From Alphaproteobacteria bacterium (GTDB taxonomy: Bacteria; Pseudomonadota; Alphaproteobacteria; MPNO01), in the NCBI GenBank assembly GCA_965200535.1, contig CBDAUF010000001.1, positions 1,162,102 through 1,226,101 of the forward strand: a stretch of 64,000 nt of DNA, given 5' to 3'. The notes beneath the pieces were generated by a model. The model was not told the origin of the DNA. It saw only the letters and a program-made list of their open reading frames with translations, and did not search any database. Below, piece after piece: positions 3,581 to 54,383 of the stretch (the stretch's first letter is position 1; each line of letters starts with the position of its first letter). Position numbers and translations under genes: made by a program.

Positions 3581-5602
3581 TCAGGCCTCCGCCCAGGCCG
3601 CCGGCAGGTCGGCCGGGGCCGGCGCCAGGATGCGTTCGGCAAGGGCGGCGGCCGGTTTGCGCAGCCGCCGGGGAAGCCGGCCCTGCGGCCAGCCGCGGCC
3701 GGCGAGATCCGGCACGGCGGCCTGGAACGGGACGACGATGCCGGGCGGCCTCTCGACCCCCGCCTCGGCCAGCAGCCCCGCGCCCGCGTTCCGCCGGAAC
3801 GCGCGCGTATGGTTCTGCACCAGCGCCACCGGCGCATTCGCGCCCGTCCCCATCGCCGCGAGGATGTGCGCCGCGCGCTGCGCGCCCGCCGTCGTCGGCT
3901 CGACCACCAGCACCCGCGCGTCCACCTCGGCGAGCAGCGCGAAGCAGGTTTCCGGATCGTCCATCCCGTCCACCAGCACCAATTGCGAGCGCCGCCGCAG
4001 CAGCGCCAGCAACCAGTCGAGCGCCGCCATCGGCGGCACCGGCGGCGGCTCCGGGCCGAGGCGGTAGGCGTAGACCGCGATCCGGTCCGACCGTTCGGTG
4101 CGCACCCCGTCGAGCACCTGCGGGTCGGAGAGGGTCGGCCCCGCCATGTCGAAGAGCTGGTCGAGGCCGGGCGCCGGGTCCACGTCGAGCTGGAGCGCCG
4201 CCGCGGCGACCGTCCGGCCGAGATCGAGCACCGAGACATAGCGCCCCTGTTCCGCCGCGCGCAGCGCGGTCGTGGCGGCGAGCGTGGTCGCCCCGCTGCC
4301 GCCGGTGCCGGCGAACCCGGCGACCCGCCCGCCGGCGTCGAAATCGTCGTCGTCGGCCGTGGCCCGCGCGACGGCCGCGCGCACCGCCGCCGCATCGATC
4401 GGCTTGACCAGATAGTCGCTGACCCCGGCGAGCAGGATTTCGCGCCCCGTGCGCGCCGTGTCGTAGGAGCCGACGGCGATCACCGCCGTGCCGACCTCGC
4501 AGACCTCCGCCAGCTCGTGCAGCGCACCGGCCGGATAGCCGACCCCGTCGATATCGACGATGACGAGCTGGGCCGACTGCCCCTCGCCGAGCGCCGCCAC
4601 CGCGGCGCGCAGTCCGCCCGGCCAGACCTGCGGATCCTCGCAGCCGGGCGCCTGCCCCTCGAAATAGAGCAGCCCCTCGCGCAGCGCATTCTCGGTCTCC
4701 CCGTCCGTCGCGAAGGCGAGCGCCGCCGGCGGCCCCGCGGGCGCCGGCTCGGCGGGCGCATCGGGCGGTGCGGCATCGGCGCCGGGTGCGGTGTCCGGCA
4801 GGGTGTCCGGGGCGATGCCGGGGATGGTCTCCGGCGCGGCAGCCGGGGCGCCGGCGGGACCGGGCGGCGGGTCGGGCGCGAAGTCCGATAGGAGATCGGC
4901 CGCGAGATCGGCCCCGAAATCGTCGGCCTCCGGCGCTTCCGGGCGGTCGGGCGCGCCGGGGGGAAAATCGTCGAGCCCGTCCAGCAGCGCGGCCGCGAAA
5001 TCGGCGCCGGGCGGCTCCGCGCCGGGGTCCGGCTCCGGCGCGGCGCGGTCTTCCGGGTCCCGCACGCCGGCGGCGGCGGGACCGTCGGTCGGTGAAATAT
5101 GTGAAAAGTCGGCCGGATCGTCCTCGAACCCGTCCAGGAGCGCGCTCGCGAAATCGGTGTCGGGCGGGCCTGCTTCCGGCGCCGGCTTCGACTCTGGCGC
5201 GGCGGGGGCGGCGAACGCCGCCGGGGCAGGCGCGGCGTCCGGAGCGGCGGCGGGCGCATCGTCCGGGGGGCGGGCGTCTTCGTCATCGGGCGGAAACTCC
5301 GCGAGGCCGTCGAGCAGCGCGCTCGCGAAATCCGCATCGAACGGATCCGTATCGGACGGGTCTGCTTCGGACGGGGCCGTTTCGTGCCGGGTCCGCCCGG
5401 TATCGTCGGGTGTCGGCGGTTGCGCAGGGTCCCCGGCGTCCGCCGGCGCACCCGCGTCCACCGGCGCATCGTCGACGGGTCTATCGGCGGCGGGCGGATC
5501 GTCGGCCAGCCCCGCCAGCAGGGCGCTTTCGAGGTCGGCATCGACCGGCGGCGGATCGTCCGCCCGTCGCGCGGCTGTGTGCGGGGAGGTGTCGTGTGCC
5601 AT
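3581..5602 (-). CDS. tadZ: TadZ/CpaE pilus-assembly protein (receiver-like plus MinD/ParA-like ATPase) with a ~300-aa acidic repeat-containing N-terminal extension
   Basis: The C-terminal ~370 aa carry a receiver-like fold and the deviant Walker A (AGTGGSGATT). The N-terminal extension is Asp/Pro/Ala-rich and holds 5 copies of a D-[FL]-[AE]-S-A-LL-DG-L-x-[DE]-F-PP motif. The true start within the extension is unknown. Confidence 0.75.
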   Translation of the reverse strand: MAHDTSPHTAARRADDPPPVDADLESALLAGLADDPPAADRPVDDAPVDAGAPADAGDPAQPPTPDDTGRTRHETAPSEADPSDTDPFDADFASALLDGLAEFPPDDEDARPPDDAPAAAPDAAPAPAAFAAPAAPESKPAPEAGPPDTDFASALLDGFEDDPADFSHISPTDGPAAAGVRDPEDRAAPEPDPGAEPPGADFAAALLDGLDDFPPGAPDRPEAPEADDFGADLAADLLSDFAPDPPPGPAGAPAAAPETIPGIAPDTLPDTAPGADAAPPDAPAEPAPAGPPAALAFATDGETENALREGLLYFEGQAPGCEDPQVWPGGLRAAVAALGEGQSAQLVIVDIDGVGYPAGALHELAEVCEVGTAVIAVGSYDTARTGREILLAGVSDYLVKPIDAAAVRAAVARATADDDDFDAGGRVAGFAGTGGSGATTLAATTALRAAEQGRYVSVLDLGRTVAAAALQLDVDPAPGLDQLFDMAGPTLSDPQVLDGVRTERSDRIAVYAYRLGPEPPPVPPMAALDWLLALLRRRSQLVLVDGMDDPETCFALLAEVDARVLVVEPTTAGAQRAAHILAAMGTGANAPVALVQNHTRAFRRNAGAGLLAEAGVERPPGIVVPFQAAVPDLAGRGWPQGRLPRRLRKPAAALAERILAPAPADLPAAWAEA

Positions 5603-5831
5603 CCGGCGCCTCGGCGGCGGGGAGCCCTAAATCGGTTCACCCATGCGTCGGTTCACGCAAAACGGGACGGGAGGGGCCCTGCCCCTCCCGCCCGGCGGGC
5701 GGCGGAGAGCGCGGAAAGGTCCCCGCGTCTCCCGCCGCCCCTGTGTTCCGCGGCTGTTTCTACCCTTCTTCGGGGGTCGGGATCGCGTCCTCGGACTCGG
5801 TCTGGATGCTGGTGCCAATAGCCTCAAGGGC

Positions 5832-10138: not shown

Positions 10139-10239
10139 ATCCGTTCTCTCCACCCGACCGGTTCCACGTGCTCCTTCGCGGCCTCGTTCACGATCCCGGC
10201 GATACCGTTCTCCAGCGCCCGAACGATGGCTTCCGCCAT
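10135..10239 (-). CDS. 34-aa peptide MAEAIVRALENGIAGIVNEAAKEHVEPVGWRERI, a paralog of the N-terminus of the 10453..10695 gene
   Basis: Hand translation. About 43 nt of near-identical DNA is shared with 10633-10676. It is translationally coupled to the downstream gene. Confidence 0.35.
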   Translation of the reverse strand: MAEAIVRALENGIAGIVNEAAKEHVEPVGWRERI

Positions 10240-10452
10240 CGCGCGAAGCCTTTAGCCGGCGTAGCCGGCGTTTATCGTCCAGCCGCGACGCGGTCCTGCG
10301 AGCCGCCGCCGGCGGTTCCGGTCAGGGATCGGGTCCCCTTTGAAACGGCGCTCGAACCCGTGCCCTGCGACGGTCCCGGCGCCCTCGAGGGGTTGCCCGT
10401 TCGGGGGCCGTCGTCCGGACGGGCGGTCCTGCACGACCGGCGGACCGTGCGT

Positions 10453-10695
10453 TCAGACCGATTTGTCCGGCCAGTCGCCGGTGCCCCTGGCATAGGCGAT
10501 CTCGCCCCGGATCTCCGCTATATCCGACTTCAGGTCGGCGATGTCCTGTTTGGTCGCCATGTTGGCGGCTATGGAGTGCCGCAGCGCCTCCACCGACGCC
10601 TTGACCGGTTCTATGTTCTTCTTGACGATCTCGGTGATGCCGTTCTCCAGCGCCCGAACGATGGCTTCCGCCATCGCGTCATCCTTGGCCGACAT
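10453..10695 (-). CDS. 80-aa coiled-coil protein, DUF1640-like (…MATKQDIADLKSDIAEIRGEI…)
   Basis: Lower-GC ORF. It has an N-terminal MAEAIVRALENGI segment and the ATK-DIA-L heptad segment reminiscent of DUF1640 proteins such as 53916..54383. Confidence 0.5.
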   Translation of the reverse strand: MSAKDDAMAEAIVRALENGITEIVKKNIEPVKASVEALRHSIAANMATKQDIADLKSDIAEIRGEIAYARGTGDWPDKSV

Positions 10696-12129: not shown

Positions 12130-12376
12130 GCTGGCCGATAATGGCGGGAAACCGTCGCCGCAGTACCCGAGTCGCTGCGCACATTGATTGGAAAGCCCGG
12201 CCCCGTGGAGAAAGCGCGTATCGAGGAGTTTCTTTCTATAGCGAACCCCGACTGGGGTCCGACCGGCGACCGTTTTCCCGAGCACCGCCCGATCGCCCAT
12301 ATTCGCGATCCGGCGGGACAGTTGGTATGATATATCGAGTTGCGTTTACTTCAGCAAAAGCGATCCGGTCGGACGA

Positions 12377-12784
12377 TTGATCGCGTCCTGGGCGGCATTC
12401 TGTCGCGACCATCGCAATGTCTGGGATCAGCTTCTCCTGACCCTGGCGTGGTTTCGCGTGGCAAAACACATGCCAATCGCCAGCCTTTGGCTGAATGAGG
12501 GAATTTTTCGGTTTCCCCGACCGAGAATACGCGACTGGCGCGACCGTGTCTTCTATTACCCATACAAGCGTAAAATTCGACCGTTCATCGATCAGAAACA
12601 AGCCTCGCGCTCGCTAAAATCGTTCATAAATGCATCCGGGAACAGCGCCGGAATGCAAGGGGAAGAACTGGGCTCAGAAAACGTTTCTTCGGGCTTCCGC
12701 AATGCATTGAAACGCTGTGATTTCAGTTTCGATGCGCGAATTGAGACCATTCTACCCCCCCCCCCCCGCGGGGGACAGCGATAG
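12377..12784 (+). CDS. hypothetical protein (low-GC island); its 3' end contains the poly-C tract (…ILPPPPRGGQR)
   Basis: ORF-track entry only, with no recognisable family. It ends in TAG-TAG immediately before the next ATG. Confidence 0.25.
   Translation: MIASWAAFCRDHRNVWDQLLLTLAWFRVAKHMPIASLWLNEGIFRFPRPRIRDWRDRVFYYPYKRKIRPFIDQKQASRSLKSFINASGNSAGMQGEELGSENVSSGFRNALKRCDFSFDARIETILPPPPRGGQR
12755..12767. repeat. homopolymeric C13 tract followed by GCGGGGG
   Basis: Counted directly in the sequence. It lies 21 nt upstream of the ATG at 12788 and inside the last codons of ORF 12377..12784. Confidence 0.9.
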
Positions 12785-12787
12785 TAG

Positions 12788-13546
12788 ATGACAGCCAGGC
12801 GAAAATCGCGCCTGGAGCGCCTTCTGTCCTTGAACTGGCACCGCAAGCGCTGGGGTGCTTCGAAGCATGTCGCCGCCGGCGGGAGAGGCGACCTCTCCGC
12901 CATGAAGACGGATATCGTCGAGGCGGGAACGCCGATACAGACACGCGGTTCCGAGAAGTCGCTCGATCTCCACCTCGCCAATCTCCGGGACGAGTTCTCG
13001 GGACAACCGGAATTGATTTGGTACCATGCCAAGCTGATCGTCCTGATCAGACGCGAGTTCCGCACATCGGAAAACTATTCACAATTTCGGTTGCTTTGGG
13101 ATGCCGAACACACTTTTCTGTGCGAGAATCTGAACATCCGATGGCTGGTTTCGGCAGCGGACACCATTGCTGATCATGACCGGGATCCCGAGATACGCGC
13201 GGCGGCGATGATGGCGACCCTTCTCGTCAACACCATCAAGATGCAGGAAAGCGAGCGCTACGTGTGCGATGCGTCGAGCTTGCCGCCCGATCCTGCTCGC
13301 ATCACCCGTCTCGGGAACGAATTGGTGCCGCTCTTTTCCGGGATGTCCTCTTTCTCGGTAGGCACCGACGATACGCTCAGGAACATGTACTGGCGGCTTG
13401 AGCCGTTCTTCGGGGCCGGACCGGGGGGAAAAATCCTGAAGACAGTCTGGTCCCGGCTCCAGGTCGAAGACACGGTTTTCGCCCGAATGCGCAAACTGCA
13501 CCGCCGCAACCGTACGCGCTGGTGGGACGATACCGATCAGCGCTGA
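12788..13546 (+). CDS. hypothetical protein (252 aa, low-GC island)
   Basis: Longest ORF in the region, preceded by GGGGGA 12 nt upstream. No recognisable family. It is convergent with the GT25 gene. Confidence 0.4.
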   Translation: MTARRKSRLERLLSLNWHRKRWGASKHVAAGGRGDLSAMKTDIVEAGTPIQTRGSEKSLDLHLANLRDEFSGQPELIWYHAKLIVLIRREFRTSENYSQFRLLWDAEHTFLCENLNIRWLVSAADTIADHDRDPEIRAAAMMATLLVNTIKMQESERYVCDASSLPPDPARITRLGNELVPLFSGMSSFSVGTDDTLRNMYWRLEPFFGAGPGGKILKTVWSRLQVEDTVFARMRKLHRRNRTRWWDDTDQR

Positions 13547-14328
13547 CCGCCGATGAAATGGCTGCGGTCGAGGCGGATTTGACGGCGTCGGGCATGATGC
13601 GCATGGCACAGCACCCGGACCGCGATCCCCATCTCGATCCCTATGCGACGCAGCCGGAAACCGGGGGTCCACCGTCTTACTCGCTTCTCGCGGTCGGCAC
13701 CGATAGTCGAGGGAGCCCGGATCGGCGCTGCCAGACCGTACCTGGCGGCGCGGTCGAGTTGTACCGCACAGGCCGGTTCGATCTGGAAGCTGCGCAGTTC
13801 GTACGCCAGACTGATTACAGCATCGGCAGGCCCGGCCCTGCGCGACGCGTTCTCCAGAAGCATCCTCGCCCCGGACGGCCATAACAGATAGGCAACCGCG
13901 CCGCTGCGGTCCTGGAAGAGCCTGTGAAGCCGATGTTCCGGCGTGAGGTGCCGGCCCGCGCGTGCAACGGTCTTGCGCTGCTGCCGAACTTCGAGCGTCA
14001 GGCGATCGATCTCCGCAAGTTGTCCGGCTGCCGCCAGAACGCCGGGTGTATGCGCTGACAGGATGGCGTCGTCCTCGAGGATGAGAACCGGCATTTCCAT
14101 CTCGGCGACCCGGTTCCAGGCGGCGATATGGCTGAGGAGACAGGCGCGTTCGGCGTCCCCCAGCGGCCTTGCCCAACTGTTCCAGTAGCTGTCGCTTCGC
14201 GCCGTCGAGGCGTCGCCGGACTCGACGGCCTCGAGTCTCTCGAATTTCAGCCCGAGCCTGTCGAGCTGCTCGCTCATGAATTTCATGCGCTCCGTTTCGG
14301 CGGCGAGATTGATTACCAGACAATGCAT
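13537..14328 (-). CDS. GT25-family glycosyltransferase (LPS/LOS core galactosyl-transferase-like)
   Basis: MHCLVINLAAETERMKFMSEQL N-terminus typical of GT25. The ATG at 14328 was chosen; the upstream MDRIRTNCEDRP segment is a translated copy of the 44-bp repeat. Confidence 0.75.
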   Translation of the reverse strand: MHCLVINLAAETERMKFMSEQLDRLGLKFERLEAVESGDASTARSDSYWNSWARPLGDAERACLLSHIAAWNRVAEMEMPVLILEDDAILSAHTPGVLAAAGQLAEIDRLTLEVRQQRKTVARAGRHLTPEHRLHRLFQDRSGAVAYLLWPSGARMLLENASRRAGPADAVISLAYELRSFQIEPACAVQLDRAARYGLAAPIRAPSTIGADREKRVRRWTPGFRLRRIGIEMGIAVRVLCHAHHARRRQIRLDRSHFIGGQR

Positions 14329-14448
14329 GCCAGTCTTTGACAACGGTATCGGGGCGTGGTGCGGGGTCAGGAACGGCGCTCTCGCTTCCACGGACGGGTA
14401 AGGCCCGACCGGGATTCCTTGAGCGCCGAATCTCCGGTCTCGACTACC

Positions 14449-14492
14449 GGGCCGATCCTCGCAGTTCGTCCGGATGCGGTCCACCGCCGGCG
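14449..14492. repeat. 44-bp direct repeat, copy 1 (GGGCCGATCCTCGCAGTTCGTCCGGATGCGGTCCACCGCCGGCG), 121-164 nt upstream of the GT25 start
   Basis: 42 of 44 positions are identical to copy 2 at 16405..16448. Confidence 0.8.
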
Positions 14493-14548
14493 TGGCGAGC
14501 CCGTACCGCGCGGGACGTCGAGAAGCGCTTCTCGAAGCCGCGGCTGCC

Positions 14549-15151
14549 TTACCCCGCCGCTCCCGAGACCCGGAGCAGTCGGCTCACATCCCGCCACAGC
14601 TTGTCGAAGGAGGGCGCCGCCGCGCGCGCCGCGTCCATATCGAAGCGGGCGGTAAACGAAGCCTGGTGGAGTGTTTCGCGATAGGTCTTGCCCGGCCGCA
14701 TCCGCGCGGCCAGCCAGCCTTTCGCATTCGCGATCGCCTCGGGGTTGCCCGGCGGCGCGACGGCGGGATCGGCGTCCCGCCATTCGATCAGCGACGCGGC
14801 CGCCGCGATAAACCAAGCCTCGTATTCCATCTTCGCCAGCACCGCGCAGACGGTCCGGTCCGGTCTGGCGTCGCGGGCGCGCTGCAGGAGTTCCGGCGCG
14901 AGCCTCGCCGGGCAATCGCCGTTGGCGTCGAACAGGAGCAGGATACAGCCGTTCGCTGCCGCCCTTCCGGCGGCGAGGTCGATGGTGCGTTCGAGTTCGC
15001 CGCCTCGCAGGATGCGGTTGCGGCTCACCCGGATCGGCCTCGGGATGTCGAGCGCGATATCGGGCGACACCTGTGCGGCGATCCGGCGCAGCAGCACCGG
15101 AACCGCCCGGACCTCGCCATGCCCCTCGACGACGGTCGCTATTCGATGCAC
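14549..15151 (-). CDS. DUF4276-like protein (possible Toprim-like partner of the upstream ATPase)
   Basis: GTG at 15151 overlaps the ATPase 3' end by 13 nt. N-terminal VHRIATVVEGHGEVRAVPVLLRRI and C-terminal MEYEAWF motifs as recalled for DUF4276. The remaining 5' part of ORF 14549..16090 is artefact. Confidence 0.6.
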   Translation of the reverse strand: MHRIATVVEGHGEVRAVPVLLRRIAAQVSPDIALDIPRPIRVSRNRILRGGELERTIDLAAGRAAANGCILLLFDANGDCPARLAPELLQRARDARPDRTVCAVLAKMEYEAWFIAAAASLIEWRDADPAVAPPGNPEAIANAKGWLAARMRPGKTYRETLHQASFTARFDMDAARAAAPSFDKLWRDVSRLLRVSGAAG

Positions 15152-16362
15152 GCGCCGGGACCCGGGCCGAACAGATCGATGCGGCGCGGCGCCGGCCTCG
15201 AAGCCTCGGGATCCGGCTCGATCTGGTCCATCCTGAGCAGTTCGCCCGCGGTGTACAGGCGCTTCTTCAGGGCCGCACGGCCGACCTCGTCGAGCGGGCC
15301 GATACGGCTCTCGCCGTGCTCCAGCGCGACGGCAATAATCGATTCCGCAGGAATATCCTCGTCGTCGAGCAGGTCGGGGCTGTGGCTGGTCACCAGGATC
15401 TGCGCGTTGTCCGCGGCATCCCTGAGGCTGTCGATCAGGACGCCGAAGGCGGCGGGGTGAAGGGCGATCTCCGGCTCCTCGATACCGACGAGCCGCCGCG
15501 CCGCCCCGGCGGTTCCGGCACCCTGAAAGACCGCGGTCAGCACGCCGAGCGCGCGCAGGGTGCCATCCGACATGTTGGCGGCGAGAAAGCGCCACGGATG
15601 CTGCGCACCGCGAACCTCCTGGCGAAACTCCAGGGTCTCGCGCGGTCCCACCGGGCGCCGGTCGACGCCGTCGATGCCCGGCGCGACCTCGCCCAGATAG
15701 TCCTCGATTCTCCGCTTGAAATCGGGTGCGCGCGCGGCGAGGCCGGAGAGGACGCTCGCCAGATTGCTCCCGTCGCGTTTCAGCAGCGTTCCCGGATCCG
15801 GCGGCTGGAGGTCGCGGATGGCTTCCGGGTTGAGATTGTAAACCCCCGTCGACGACAGCGCCTCGTAGACCGGGCGGAAGGCATCGATCCCGGAGACCGC
15901 GACCAGATACAGGCGGTCGGCGGCGGCGAGCGGGGCCGGCGAGACGGTGATCCGGCGAACCCGGCCCTTCTCCACCCTGAAATAGTGCGAACCCGATCCG
16001 TCCCGCGCAATCGACAGGCACTCCTCGCTGCGCACCGCGTATCCACGGTCGGGCATGGAGCCGACCGTGAAGGCGTAGTGTCCGCGCCACGCCTCCAAGC
16101 CGAATTCGACGCGAATCCCGAAATGGTTGGGATGGCCGCCCGAGCGCCGGCGCACCTCGCCGATGCCGCCGCGGTCGCGCAGCGCGTGGTCGATCGAGAA
16201 GCGGAGCGCATCGGCGACGAAGTGGAGGGCGTCGAGAAAATTGCTCTTCCCCGATCCGTTCGGCCCGACGAGGAAGGAGACCTGCGCCGGCGAAATGTCG
16301 CAGGCGCCGATGCTCTTGTAGTTTCTGAGCCTTATCCGCGTCAGTAGTCGGCGGTCAGGCAT
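15139..16362 (-). CDS. AAA_21/AAA_15-type ABC ATPase (OLD/AbiLi/AriA-like)
   Basis: Walker A GPNGSGKSN, Walker B IGIEEPE, TSHSP. ATG at 16362 with GGAGG upstream. The first 26 codons of the track ORF are a translated repeat copy. Confidence 0.8.
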   Translation of the reverse strand: MPDRRLLTRIRLRNYKSIGACDISPAQVSFLVGPNGSGKSNFLDALHFVADALRFSIDHALRDRGGIGEVRRRSGGHPNHFGIRVEFGLEAWRGHYAFTVGSMPDRGYAVRSEECLSIARDGSGSHYFRVEKGRVRRITVSPAPLAAADRLYLVAVSGIDAFRPVYEALSSTGVYNLNPEAIRDLQPPDPGTLLKRDGSNLASVLSGLAARAPDFKRRIEDYLGEVAPGIDGVDRRPVGPRETLEFRQEVRGAQHPWRFLAANMSDGTLRALGVLTAVFQGAGTAGAARRLVGIEEPEIALHPAAFGVLIDSLRDAADNAQILVTSHSPDLLDDEDIPAESIIAVALEHGESRIGPLDEVGRAALKKRLYTAGELLRMDQIEPDPEASRPAPRRIDLFGPGPGACIE

Positions 16363-16404
16363 CTCCAGCCCTCCAGTCGGTCGGTGCGCCGGCGCCGGGA
16401 CGGC

Positions 16405-16448
16405 GGGCCGATCCTCGCAGTTCGTTCGGGTGCGGTCCACCGCCGGCG
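16405..16448. repeat. 44-bp direct repeat, copy 2, 43-86 nt upstream of the ATPase start
   Basis: See copy 1 at 14449..14492. Confidence 0.8.
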
Positions 16449-16458
16449 GCAGCGCGGG

Positions 16459-16992
16459 CTATGCCCCGCCGACGAATTCGGGCATGGCTTCGGCCGGCGC
16501 CCAGGGGCCGCCGCCGAGCTTCAGCTCCTTGCCGGCGATCAGGTTGGCGGCCATGCGCGCGCCGGCGCCGACGATGAGTTCCGCCGTCACCCAGTCGCCG
16601 CGCCGGCGCAGCCTCTTGAGTTCGCCGACCACCATGTCGATTTCGCGCGCGGTCAGCCGGGCGGCCTTGCCCGCCGCGTGCTTCGACAGCATCTCGCGGG
16701 CGGCGCGCTCGAACTCCTTCTCCGGGATGGCGCTGGCCGGGTAGCGCAGGTGCACGACCTGCTGGACGAAGGATCCGTCCCGCGTCACCGCATCGTCCAC
16801 CCGCGCCTGTCTGCCGAGGCTGGAGGACTGCACCTTGACCTCGAACCCGGCGCTCCGGGTCCGGGGGTGGAAGAGTTCCGCGCCGCGCGTGAAGACGCTG
16901 TGCTCGACCTCCTCGACGACGGCGTCGTAGCGGCGCCTCACCGTCCTGCCGCCGACCGCCGCCCTCCCCGTCCTCGGGCCCGCGCCGCGCAC
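16459..16992 (-). CDS. hypothetical protein (…VVEEVEHSVFTRGAELFHPRTRSAGFEVKVQSS…), possibly the C-terminal part of a frameshifted gene
   Basis: Protein-like composition. The true N-terminus appears to lie in the other frame (17000..17626). Confidence 0.4.
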   Translation of the reverse strand: MRGAGPRTGRAAVGGRTVRRRYDAVVEEVEHSVFTRGAELFHPRTRSAGFEVKVQSSSLGRQARVDDAVTRDGSFVQQVVHLRYPASAIPEKEFERAAREMLSKHAAGKAARLTAREIDMVVGELKRLRRRGDWVTAELIVGAGARMAANLIAGKELKLGGGPWAPAEAMPEFVGGA

Positions 16993-16999
16993 CCGGCCG

Positions 17000-17626
17000 C
17001 AGCGCGGGGATGCCGGCCTCCATGGCGATCATCCCCGACCCCCGCAGGTCGTCGGCGAGTGCGAGGATCAGCGTGCGCGGGAAGCGGCCGATCTCGGTCT
17101 TTCCGTCGGCGTCGGTGATGCGGACGAAATAGCCGCCGTGCTCGGGCGGAAAATCCACCCGGAGGTTGGTCCTGCGGCCGAACTCGGCCAGCGCCGCCGC
17201 GTCGCTGTCGGAGACCGGGGAGAAGGCGGGCGCTGCGCCGTCCGCGCCTGCGGCGGGCCAGTACGCCTTGGTCTCCACCAGCGCCCGCTCGCGCACCCGG
17301 AAGTCCCACAATGCGCGGGTGGTCTCCTCGCGCCGGCGGTTGGACTCGCGCCACGCTTCCGCCGGCGCCGGCTCGGCGGCGGGCGCCGGGCCGGGGGGCG
17401 CCGCCAAGGCCTGCACTAGGCGGCGGACGATGTCGGGATGGCGTTCCGGGTCGATCCCGGGGACAGGGGCGGGGGCGAGGCCGGGGCCCGGCCCCGGGAT
17501 CGACCCGGCTTGCGGCGCGGCCTCCGGGGCGGCGGAGTGCCCGGCGAGGGGCGGGAGAAGCAGCGCCGGCAGGGGCAGGCGTGCGGGCGGCGCGGCGCGG
17601 CGCCCGGCCGCGGACGGGTGGATCAT
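17000..17626 (-). CDS. exported protein N-terminal portion (signal peptide MIHPSAAGRRAAPPARLPLPALLLPPLAGHSA, Pro-rich linker); frame continues as junk after ~17000
   Basis: Part of ORF 16355..17626. The protein-like part ends where ORF 16459..16992 begins, suggesting a frameshift in a G-rich run near 16940-17000. Confidence 0.35.
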
Positions 17627-27521: not shown

Positions 27522-27608
27522 GCGGTCGTGGCGGAATTGGTAGACGCGCAGCGTTGAGGTCGCTGTGGGAGCGATCCCGTGGAAGTTCGAGTCTTCTCGA
27601 CCGCACCA
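27522..27608 (+). tRNA. tRNA-Leu (anticodon GAG), type II with long variable arm, CCA encoded
   Basis: Cloverleaf folded by hand. 7-bp acceptor stem GCGGTCG/CGACCGC, anticodon loop TTGAGGT, T-loop GTTCGAGTC, 3' ACCA. Confidence 0.85.
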
Positions 27609-53803: not shown

Positions 53804-53915
53804 GGCTGACGGAACTCCTGATTGAGTTCGATTTCAACGAATGCGCGCCGCGCAGCCGGTGACGGCTCGAGCGCCGATCCTTGTCCGATGCCGGGGGAGT
53901 TCCTATGATCGGCGC

Positions 53916-54383
53916 ATGACCGGGGCGATCGCCTTCGACACCCACCGCTTCGTCAAACGTCTGACGGAGAGCGGCTTCACCGAGAGGCAGGCCGAGACGC
54001 TGGCGGAAGAGCATGTCGCCCTGCTCAACGCCAATCTTGCGACCAAGGCCGACAGCGCGGCGATCCATGCCGAGATAACGCGGGTCGAGGCCGGCATCGA
54101 GACGCTGCGTCAGGAGACCCGGGCCGACATAGCGCAGGTCGAGGCCGGCGTCGAGACGCTGCGTCAGGAGACTCGGGCCGACATAGCGCGGGTCGAGGCC
54201 GGCATCGAGGCGCTGCGTCAGGAGACCCAAGCCGACATAGCGCGGGTCGAGGCCGGCATCGAGGCGCTGCGTCAGGAGACCCGGGCGGGCATGGAGGCCG
54301 TGAAGGCCGATTTGCTGAAATGGCTGTTCGGCGCGCTGGTTGCCCAGGGAGGTCTGATCGTCGCCCTGGTCAAGCTGCTGTAG
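53916..54383 (+). CDS. DUF1640 coiled-coil protein with C-terminal TM anchor
   Basis: MTGAIAFDTHRFVKRLTESGFTERQAETLAEE…LATKADSAAIHAEI… then four 17-aa repeats and a TM tail. Confidence 0.7.
   Translation: MTGAIAFDTHRFVKRLTESGFTERQAETLAEEHVALLNANLATKADSAAIHAEITRVEAGIETLRQETRADIAQVEAGVETLRQETRADIARVEAGIEALRQETQADIARVEAGIEALRQETRAGMEAVKADLLKWLFGALVAQGGLIVALVKLL
54082..54290 (+). repeat. 4 x 51-bp near-perfect tandem repeat inside the DUF1640 gene (17-aa unit RVEAGIEALRQETRADIA)
   Basis: Read directly. The antisense ORF 53436..54230 (GLLTQRLDAGLDPRY repeats) is its mirror artefact. Confidence 0.85.

What the first reader, a model, noticed from the sequence alone, without database searches (positions are those of the whole stretch)
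14449..16448. 44-bp direct repeat (42/44 identical) placed upstream of two unrelated minus-strand genes (GT25 glycosyltransferase and the AAA ATPase)
GGGCCGATCCTCGCAGTTCGT(C/T)CGG(A/G)TGCGGTCCACCGCCGGCG occurs at 14449-14492 and 16405-16448, each in the 5' region of a gene start (121 and 43 nt upstream). The six-frame track translates both copies into the same false N-terminus MDR(I/T)RTNCEDRP. A shared element this long suggests a common promoter or operator, a 5'-UTR RNA motif, or a remnant of a mobile-element end that delivered both cassettes.
Basis: seen in the sequence. Interest (0 to 1): 0.5.

Follow-up and report, generated by a model that had tools for sequence, protein, structure and literature searches.

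The report
Repeat pair brackets inserted defence cassette
A real 45-base direct repeat sits on either side of a small, horizontally travelling two-gene candidate phage-defence cassette, so it is most likely the scar left by that cassette's insertion and not a shared gene switch; this is a fairly ordinary finding.

Summary
The repeat is real. It is 45 nt, not 44, at 14448-14492 and 16404-16448, with 43/45 identity and sharp edges. There are exactly two copies in the 64 kb, far beyond chance.

On the minus strand the order is: orphan gene X, copy 2, ABC ATPase, DUF4276/TOPRIM-like protein, copy 1, GT25. The two copies therefore bracket one two-gene operon, the PADLOC candidate defence system HEC-01.

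That operon occurs as a stand-alone pair in unrelated contexts across many phyla, at 55-79 % ATPase identity. None of 55 surveyed homologous cassettes has flanking repeats or this sequence. Cassette-to-cassette homology stops about 15 nt upstream of the ATG. GC3 steps at the repeat copies: 0.94, then 0.84, then 0.75.

I found no promoter or terminator consensus, no Rfam family, no stable fold, no attC core, no terminal inverted repeats, no tRNA and no nearby recombinase. The repeat's core is absent from the genome, metagenome and viral collections.

Best reading (about 0.55): junction duplication (attL/attR-like) from insertion of a 1.9-kb HEC-01 islet into the gene X-GT25 spacer.

An empty site could not be obtained, because the nearest relatives are too distant or their contigs end too early. 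Genome-wide copy number is also untested. Interest is low to moderate.

The parts
16404..16448 (.). Direct repeat copy 2 (45 nt). On the minus strand it begins 10 nt after the stop of gene X and ends 41 nt before the ATPase ATG. This is the upstream junction of the bracketed segment.
14448..14492 (.). Direct repeat copy 1 (45 nt, 43/45 identical to copy 2). On the minus strand it begins 56 nt after the stop of the DUF4276 gene and ends 119 nt before the GT25 ATG. This is the downstream junction.
14493..16403 (-). Bracketed segment of 1,911 bp. It holds only the two-gene HEC-01 operon plus a 41-nt leader and a 56-nt trailer. Together with one repeat copy it makes a 1,956-bp unit. This is the inferred insert.
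15139..16362 (-). HEC-01A: ABC-type ATPase (AAA_21/AAA_15/SMC_N), 407 aa.
   Evidence: Pfam. PADLOC PDLC04178, E=2.4e-155. Homologues at 55-79 % identity in many phyla.
14549..15151 (-). HEC-01B: DUF4276 (TOPRIM-like) protein, 200 aa from GTG 15151, overlapping the ATPase stop by 13 nt. Gene callers start it at 15097 (182 aa).
   Evidence: PADLOC PDLC04196, E=1.8e-72, profile positions 1-193 of 197. PF14103 on the called product.
14518..14535 (.). Perfect 18-nt palindrome TCGAGAAGCGCTTCTCGA, 13 nt downstream of the DUF4276 stop and inside the bracketed segment. Possibly a cassette-borne hairpin or terminator without a U-tract.
   Evidence: Read from the sequence; appears as a hairpin in the fold of 14400-14548. 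The terminator scan did not call it.
16459..16941 (-). Gene X: upstream flanking gene, 160 aa, no Pfam family and no homologue in 5.8 billion proteins. GC3 is 0.94. Probably the C-terminal part of a frameshifted gene that starts at 17626.
13537..14328 (-). GT25 glycosyltransferase: downstream flanking gene, 263 aa, GC3 0.75. It lies in a low-GC block together with the convergent 252-aa gene at 12788-13546.

Best explanation
The two 45-bp copies are the junctions of an insertion. A ~1.9-kb DNA segment carrying only the HEC-01 operon (ABC ATPase + DUF4276/TOPRIM-like protein) was integrated into the spacer between gene X and the GT25 gene, and the 45-bp sequence at the point of entry ended up on both sides.

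The most likely route is Campbell-type recombination between a 45-bp sequence on a circular form of the incoming DNA and the same sequence in the chromosome. That recombination would be either site-specific, by a recombinase encoded elsewhere (an attL/attR pair of an integrase-less, CIME-like islet), or RecA-dependent on short homology. A long staggered-cut target duplication is less likely.

Inferred consequences: the same 45 bp now precedes both HEC-01 and GT25, and the repeats make the cassette precisely deletable.

Shown: the repeat, its sharp edges, its bracketing geometry, and the cassette's identity and horizontal distribution. Inferred: that an insertion created the duplication. Unknown: the enzyme, and whether excision still occurs.
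For: (1) There are exactly two copies, in direct orientation, with sharp edges and unrelated flanks.

(2) They enclose one complete two-gene operon and nothing else, with margins of 41 and 56 nt.

(3) That operon is a self-contained horizontally moving unit. ATPase homologues at 55-79 % identity occur in Alphaproteobacteria, Vicinamibacterales, Longimicrobiales, Spirochaetia, Planctomycetota, Chloroflexota and others, most of them directly followed by a DUF4276 gene. The three closest loci sit between unrelated housekeeping genes.

(4) The 45-mer is not cassette-borne. None of the 55 surveyed homologous cassettes has a flanking direct repeat above the shuffle null (best score 14, null maxima 10-17, this locus 39). 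None carries this sequence. Cassette-to-cassette nucleotide similarity ends about 15 nt upstream of the ATG.

(5) GC3 steps at the two copies: gene X 0.94, HEC-01A/B 0.85/0.84, GT25 0.75.

(6) The arrangement is reproduced in independent assemblies.

(7) Readings that need a function for the repeat find no support.
Against: No empty site was seen. Gene X has no homologue and the nearest GT25 is 59 % identical. The one close relative contig (L089, 81 % nt identity) ends about 600 nt before the site. All contigs of this strain carry the cassette.

No integrase or transposase is in the segment or among the neighbouring ORFs scanned. There is no tRNA at the site, and there are no terminal inverted repeats or attC cores.

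45 bp is too long for ordinary transposon target duplications. Flanking repeats are not a general property of HEC-01 islets, so the mechanism is a one-off here.

Overall GC of the cassette (0.69-0.71) equals that of the genome. Its GC3 lies within the range of other window genes, so the compositional evidence is weak.
Confidence: 0.55

Rival explanations
1. Shared cis-regulatory element. The 45-mer would be a promoter, operator or 5'-leader that co-regulates HEC-01 and GT25, either duplicated for that purpose or recruited after the insertion.
For: Both copies lie upstream of a start codon on the coding strand. The 45-mer contains a weak dyad, GGGCCGATCC...GGATGCGGTCC (fold of the + strand). 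The minus strand reads TGGACC-N17-GAGGAT, a poor -35/-10 resemblance that I read from the sequence. A duplication made by an insertion would in any case place identical sequence before both operons.
Against: No sigma-70-like site passes the scan. Spacing to the ATGs differs (41 vs 119 nt). The A-to-G change in copy 2 weakens the dyad. There is no Rfam hit and fold z-scores are around zero. Nothing similar lies upstream of 55+ homologous ATPase genes or the closest GT25 genes. No other copy exists in 64 kb. The copies sit equally well in 3' position to the preceding genes.
Confidence: 0.15
2. Two members of a dispersed, genome-specific intergenic repeat family (REP-, BIME- or MITE-like). They happen to flank the cassette, or they served as portable homology for its capture.
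For: Both copies are intergenic and just 3' of stop codons, as REPs typically are. The rest of the ~2-Mb source contig could not be searched. The organism has no close sequenced relatives, so absence from public collections says little.
Against: There are only two copies in 64 kb and no degenerate or half copies. The sequence does not form a hairpin more stable than shuffles. Both copies are in the same orientation and are placed exactly around one operon, which two random draws from a dispersed family would rarely do.
Confidence: 0.12
3. A local, functionless duplication unrelated to acquisition of the cassette. One example is ectopic gene conversion or copy-choice that copied 45 nt of one spacer into the other after HEC-01 was already in place.
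For: Only one such pair exists. No recombinase, inverted ends or att-like features were found. The two copies have already diverged by two transitions, consistent with no constraint.
Against: It would need a coincidence to place the copy symmetrically around the one obviously horizontally acquired operon, and with sharp edges on both sides. Short-patch conversion needs pre-existing flanking homology, and there is none.
Confidence: 0.08

Closest known systems
attL/attR direct repeats of integrative genomic islands, and integrase-less cis-mobilizable elements (CIMEs) flanked by att sites (from my own knowledge of the literature)
   Same: A direct repeat of a few tens of bp, with sharp edges, brackets a block of horizontally acquired genes. 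The block sits in an intergenic position next to the 3' end of a gene. Occasional mismatches between the two copies are normal.
   Different: No integrase lies in or near the element, and the site is not a tRNA or tmRNA gene. The element is only 1.9 kb and holds nothing but cargo. No cognate integrating element with the same att was found, and no excision or empty site has been seen.
Target-site duplications of transposons and casposons
   Same: An identical sequence in direct orientation on both sides of an insert.
   Different: 45 bp greatly exceeds the usual 2-15 bp. There are no terminal inverted repeats (13/25) and no transposase or Cas1.
Integron gene cassettes with attC sites, and CALINs
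   Same: Compact co-oriented cassette(s), each followed by a similar short repeat.
   Different: There are no RYYYAAC/GTTRRRY cores, no attC-like imperfect hairpin, no IntI, and only two copies.
REP/BIME-type intergenic repeats
   Same: GC-rich, intergenic, and just downstream of stop codons.
   Different: It is not palindromic or structured, and there are two copies in 64 kb. Genome-wide number is unknown.
HEC-01 (PADLOC 'Hma-embedded candidate 01'), an ABC ATPase + TOPRIM-like pair related in architecture to PARIS (AriA/AriB), OLD and Gabija
   Same: Both proteins match the HEC-01A and HEC-01B profiles over full length. The genes overlap, as expected for an operon.
   Different: Here the pair is solitary and not embedded in an Hma system. 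HEC-01 gave no protection in the only published test (bioRxiv 10.1101/2024.01.29.577857), so 'defence' is a candidate label.

Membership tests
att-flanked integrative islet (genomic island / CIME) | Direct repeat of roughly 15-100 bp at both ends of the acquired segment, with unrelated outer and inner flanks | tested here: met
   45 nt, 43/45 identical, sharp edges
att-flanked integrative islet (genomic island / CIME) | The enclosed DNA is horizontally acquired | tested here: met
   The cassette is found as a unit in unrelated contexts across many phyla, and GC3 steps at both repeat copies. Bulk GC does not deviate.
att-flanked integrative islet (genomic island / CIME) | Tyrosine or serine recombinase inside or next to the element (by definition absent from a CIME, which then needs a cognate element elsewhere) | tested here: not met
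   The segment holds only two genes. Neighbouring ORFs are Tad-pilus, glycosyltransferase, Rieske oxygenase and similar. A cognate element elsewhere in the genome is not testable.
att-flanked integrative islet (genomic island / CIME) | Integration at a tRNA or tmRNA gene, or at the conserved 3' end of a gene | tested here: not met
   The only tRNA in the window is at 27522-27608. The repeat starts 10 nt after the stop of an orphan gene.
att-flanked integrative islet (genomic island / CIME) | Empty site with a single repeat copy in relatives, and an excised circular form | not testable with these tools
   No orthologous locus is available.
Transposon / casposon target-site duplication | Short duplication of fixed length, with terminal inverted repeats just inside it and a transposase | tested here: not met
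   45 bp. The best TIR-like match is 13/25. No IR pair at the insert ends. No transposase.
Integron cassette / attC | attC with RYYYAAC ... GTTRRRY cores and an imperfect hairpin; IntI nearby | tested here: not met
   No core motif within +/-20 nt of either copy on either strand. Fold no better than shuffles.
REP/BIME-like dispersed repeat | Stable imperfect palindrome | tested here: not met
   z-scores from -0.07 to +0.86 on both strands
REP/BIME-like dispersed repeat | Tens to hundreds of copies per genome | tested here: inconclusive
   Two copies in 64 kb and no degenerate copies. The core is absent from the genome, metagenome and viral collections.
Shared promoter / operator / RNA leader | Recognisable promoter or known RNA family, fixed spacing to the regulated genes, and conservation upstream of homologues | tested here: not met
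   Spacing is 41 vs 119 nt. Absent upstream of homologues.
HEC-01 candidate defence system (PADLOC) | Adjacent HEC-01A (ABC ATPase) and HEC-01B (DUF4276/TOPRIM-like) genes | tested here: met
   PDLC04178 E=2.4e-155 and PDLC04196 E=1.8e-72. The genes overlap by 13 nt.
HEC-01 candidate defence system (PADLOC) | Demonstrated anti-phage activity | not testable with these tools
   The describing preprint itself found no protection in E. coli.

The most novel reading that the evidence does not exclude
The 45-mer is a genuine attachment site used by a recombinase encoded elsewhere in this genome. The 1,956-bp unit (HEC-01 operon plus one 45-mer) would then be a minimal cargo-only, trans-mobilised 'defence cassette' that can excise as a circle and re-integrate. 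That would be a concrete vehicle for the so far unexplained cross-phylum spread of tiny two-gene defence modules that carry no mobility genes.
Probability: 0.12. Interest if true: 0.55.

Novelty: new member of a known kind. Interest (0 to 1): 0.27.

Why it matters
Small defence modules such as ATPase+TOPRIM pairs are scattered through bacterial genomes without any mobility gene, and how they get in is poorly documented. A clean 45-bp duplication around one such pair is a rare footprint of an actual insertion event. It also offers a testable handle, namely junction reads and a search for the empty site. As a single case in a poorly sampled lineage, with no empty site, no recombinase and no parallel in 55 related cassettes, it remains an anecdote. 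It also corrects an annotation trap: the GTG inside the repeat creates identical false N-terminal extensions on two unrelated genes.

Tried and rejected
- **Repeat core in public collections.** Exact-pattern scans found nothing. The 22-base core was scanned against GTDB species genomes, JGI metagenomes and IMG/VR. The two repeat-end patterns were scanned against IMG/VR only. A blastn of the repeat context against plasmids also found nothing.
- **Empty-site search.**
  - Gene X has no homologue, and GT25 homologues reach at most 59 % identity.
  - The contexts of the closest GT25 homologue are transposon-rich and not syntenic, with no upstream similarity.
  - Using the Rieske oxygenase as anchor found one syntenic relative (L089), but its contig ends at about window position 17051.
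  - Exact-protein look-ups of gene X, Rieske beta, GT25 and the ATPase returned only the same cassette-bearing arrangement.
- **Is the repeat part of the cassette?** No. See the survey of 55 homologous cassettes, blastn-short against all loci (noise only) and the alignment of upstream regions.
- **RNA element.** No Rfam hit and no stable fold. Covariation cannot be tested with two near-identical copies.
- **Promoter or terminator consensus.** None found.
- **tRNA-like att.** No tRNA at the site, and my manual check found no T-arm/acceptor register.
- **Other repeat-bearing systems.**
  - attC cores and terminal inverted repeats: none.
  - dif/XerCD-like site: rejected by eye, because there is no AT-rich centre and no TTATG arm.
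  - DGR template/variable repeat pair: rejected, because there is no reverse transcriptase and the two differences are not adenine-specific on one strand.
  - CRISPR-like: rejected (two copies, 1.9-kb coding 'spacer').
- **Tandem accretion.** No third, eroded copy lies at the far edge of the low-GC GT25 block; the alignment score sits at the null median.
- **Vehicle on plasmids or phages.** Only three weak Streptomyces plasmid hits and one viral contig.
Full report
**The observation**

The repeat exists and is not chance. A search with up to three mismatches finds exactly two matches in the window, against none in 100 dinucleotide-preserving shuffles. Seed extension gives 45 nt, at 14448-14492 and 16404-16448, with 43/45 identity and 1,956 nt start to start. 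Local alignment of 300 nt on either side shows that similarity begins and ends abruptly at those 45 nt.

A mismatch-tolerant scan of both strands, with whole and half repeats, finds no third copy. The best other match is 28/45, and shuffled queries reach 26-29. Short-read Logan assemblies from several sequencing runs contain the identical arrangement with the same two substitutions, so this is not an assembly artefact.

**The anatomy**

All relevant genes are on the minus strand. Read 5' to 3' on that strand, the order is:

- Gene X (16941..16459, 160 aa). It has no Pfam family, and its only hit among 5.8 billion proteins is itself.
- 10 nt of spacer.
- Repeat copy 2.
- 41 nt of spacer ending in a GGAG ribosome-binding site.
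- An ABC-type ATPase (16362..15139, 407 aa; AAA_21/AAA_15/SMC_N).
- A 200-aa DUF4276 protein, overlapping the ATPase by 13 nt (15151..14549; PF14103 on the called product).
- 56 nt of spacer containing a perfect 18-nt palindrome (14518-14535).
- Repeat copy 1.
- 119 nt of spacer.
- The GT25 glycosyltransferase (14328..13537, 263 aa).

He therefore described the repeat as 'upstream of two unrelated genes'. The more telling description is that the two copies bracket one complete two-gene operon and nothing else.

**What the bracketed operon is**

Both proteins match the PADLOC profiles of the candidate defence system HEC-01 over their full length: HEC-01A at E=2.4e-155 and HEC-01B at E=1.8e-72. 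HEC-01 was defined as an ABC ATPase plus a TOPRIM-like protein found embedded in Hma systems. It resembles PARIS, OLD and Gabija in architecture, but it gave no protection against the phages tested in E. coli (bioRxiv 10.1101/2024.01.29.577857; DUF4276 is placed among the AAA15/21-associated effectors in PMC11464382). 'Defence' is therefore a candidate label.

**The operon moves horizontally as a unit**

The ATPase has thousands of homologues. The nearest are 76-79 % identical. In one-genome-per-species data, relatives at 54-74 % identity occur in Alphaproteobacteria, Vicinamibacterales, Longimicrobiales, Spirochaetia, Planctomycetota, Chloroflexota, Poribacteria and others. Most are directly followed by a DUF4276 gene.

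The three closest loci sit between unrelated housekeeping genes: ABC transporters, alcohol dehydrogenases and aromatic-degradation genes. This subfamily is almost absent from plasmids, with three weak Streptomyces hits. It is also almost absent from 2.9 million viral contigs, with one relative.

**The 45-mer does not travel with the cassette**

For the 55 homologous cassettes that have both genes and 500-nt flanks, I scored the best ungapped direct repeat between the upstream and downstream flanks. The window and its own Logan copies (the remaining three of the 58 rows) score 39. Every other locus scores 7-14, within the maxima of shuffled controls (10-17). A short-word blastn of the repeat and its context against all fetched loci gave only noise. 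Alignment of the upstream regions of the closest cassettes shows similarity ending at the ribosome-binding site, about 15 nt before the ATG. The repeat is therefore a property of this site in this genome, not of HEC-01.

**Composition**

Bulk GC of the cassette (0.69-0.71) equals that of the window (0.69). Third-position GC steps at the two repeat copies:

| Gene | GC3 |
|---|---|
| Rieske oxygenase genes | 0.93-0.94 |
| Gene X | 0.94 |
| HEC-01A | 0.85 |
| HEC-01B | 0.84 |
| GT25 | 0.75 |
| Convergent 252-aa gene | 0.735 |

The GT25 block is also low in bulk GC (0.54-0.66 over 12200-14400). Its closest homologue (59 %) sits with the same convergent partner gene among transposases, a resolvase and an integrase. 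The repeat copies thus lie at the boundaries of three compositionally different blocks. This is suggestive, but HEC-01's GC3 is still within the range of other genes in the window.

**Tests of the functional readings**

- The promoter and terminator scan finds nothing in 14200-16700.
- No Rfam family reaches E<=1 at the repeat.
- Folding either strand of either copy gives energies no better than shuffles, with z from -0.07 to +0.86.
- The only symmetry is a weak dyad (GGGCCGATCC ... GGATGCGGTCC), and the A-to-G substitution in copy 2 weakens it.
- The distances to the two start codons differ threefold.
- No homologous ATPase or GT25 gene has anything similar upstream.
- With two near-identical copies, covariation cannot be assessed.
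- The shared GTG-initiated 'N-terminus' is an ORF-calling artefact. Homologues, Pfam and PADLOC all place the true starts at the downstream ATGs.

**Tests of the mobile-element readings**

- There is no integrase or transposase in the segment or among the neighbouring ORFs I scanned. Those are Tad-pilus ATPase and platform proteins, GT4 and GT25 glycosyltransferases, a Rieske oxygenase, AllG, an amino-acid kinase and an aminotransferase.
- There is no tRNA at the site.
- No attC core motif lies within 20 nt of either copy.
- There are no terminal inverted repeats at the insert ends (13/25).
- By eye, the repeat shows no dif-like sequence.
- No eroded third copy lies at the far edge of the GT25 block.
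- Exact scans for the repeat core found nothing in GTDB species genomes, JGI metagenomes or IMG/VR.

**The decisive comparison could not be made**

The decisive comparison is an orthologous empty site.

- Gene X is an orphan, and the GT25 relatives are too distant.
- The only clearly syntenic relative, metagenome contig LXNJ01008312.1, is 81 % identical over window 21901-17574. It ends at about position 17051, roughly 600 nt short of the site.
- Every contig holding the exact flanking proteins carries the cassette.
- Only 64 kb of the source genome can be read, so the genome-wide copy number is unknown.

**Interpretation**

The pattern is two copies only, in direct orientation, with sharp edges. 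They enclose exactly one self-contained, horizontally distributed operon. The sequence is site-specific and not cassette-specific, and no functional signature was detected. This is best explained as a junction duplication created when the HEC-01 operon entered the gene X-GT25 spacer.

A length of 45 bp fits the identity blocks of attL/attR pairs or a single crossover on short homology (Campbell-type integration of a circle). It fits much less well with transposon target duplications. An integrase-less, att-flanked islet corresponds to what is called a cis-mobilizable element (my knowledge of the literature, not tested here).

I put 0.55 on 'insertion scar'. The enzyme is left open. The rivals are a shared regulatory element (0.15), membership of an unseen dispersed repeat family (0.12) and an unrelated local duplication (0.08).

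**Verdict**

His mobile-element idea is closest, but the repeat flanks one cassette and does not precede two. This is a new instance of a known kind of feature, direct repeats at the borders of an acquired islet, of modest interest. The more novel reading, a trans-mobilised minimal defence cassette with its own 45-bp att site, is not excluded but has no positive evidence beyond the geometry.

Noticed in passing
window 12755-12767 (compare L001): A homopolymeric C tract (C13) ends 20 nt upstream of the ATG (12788) of the 252-aa gene that is convergent with GT25. The Logan contig from SRR33960549 has C15, and this is the single gap in 8.4 kb of otherwise near-identical sequence, which shows only one mismatch besides. 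The contig from SRR33960551 has C13. It may be a slipped-strand phase-variable tract beside an LPS-type glycosyltransferase module.
   Followed up: partly
window 16459-17626 (minus strand): The coding signal (GC3) switches frame at about 16990, between an ORF starting at ATG 17626 and 'gene X' (16941..16459). The short-read contig L003 is identical there. The N-terminal part has a 45 %-identical counterpart in the relative contig L089. This is probably one frameshifted (pseudo)gene and not a 160-aa orphan.
   Followed up: partly
window 12200-14400; loci L168-L170: GT25 and its convergent ~250-aa partner form a low-GC block (0.54-0.66 against 0.69 for the window). In the closest homologues (59 %), the same gene pair sits among Tn3-type transposase fragments, a resolvase, an integrase and a reverse transcriptase. 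This module therefore looks horizontally acquired too.
   Followed up: partly
loci L005-L087: The HEC-01A ATPase is unusually well conserved (54-79 % identity) across at least ten phyla and is usually paired with DUF4276. It is almost never on plasmids or viral contigs, and no flanking repeats or mobility genes recur. How this pair spreads is unexplained.
   Followed up: partly
window 14518-14535: A perfect 18-nt palindrome, TCGAGAAGCGCTTCTCGA, lies 13 nt after the DUF4276 stop, without a following T-run.
   Followed up: no
window 15640: A G/C single-nucleotide polymorphism inside the ATPase gene (third codon position) between samples. L002 and L004 carry C; the window and L003 carry G.
   Followed up: no
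window 54015-54338: A tandem array of a 54-nt unit (about six copies, 64-92 % identity to the reference) lies inside a 186-aa ORF (53826-54383, + strand).
   Followed up: no
window 4956-5548 and 10187-10678: Four diverged 59-nt repeats lie inside the 681-aa ORF of the Tad-pilus region (3581-5626, minus strand). A separate 57-nt repeat pair, 93 % identical and 435 nt apart, lies at 10187 and 10622.
   Followed up: no
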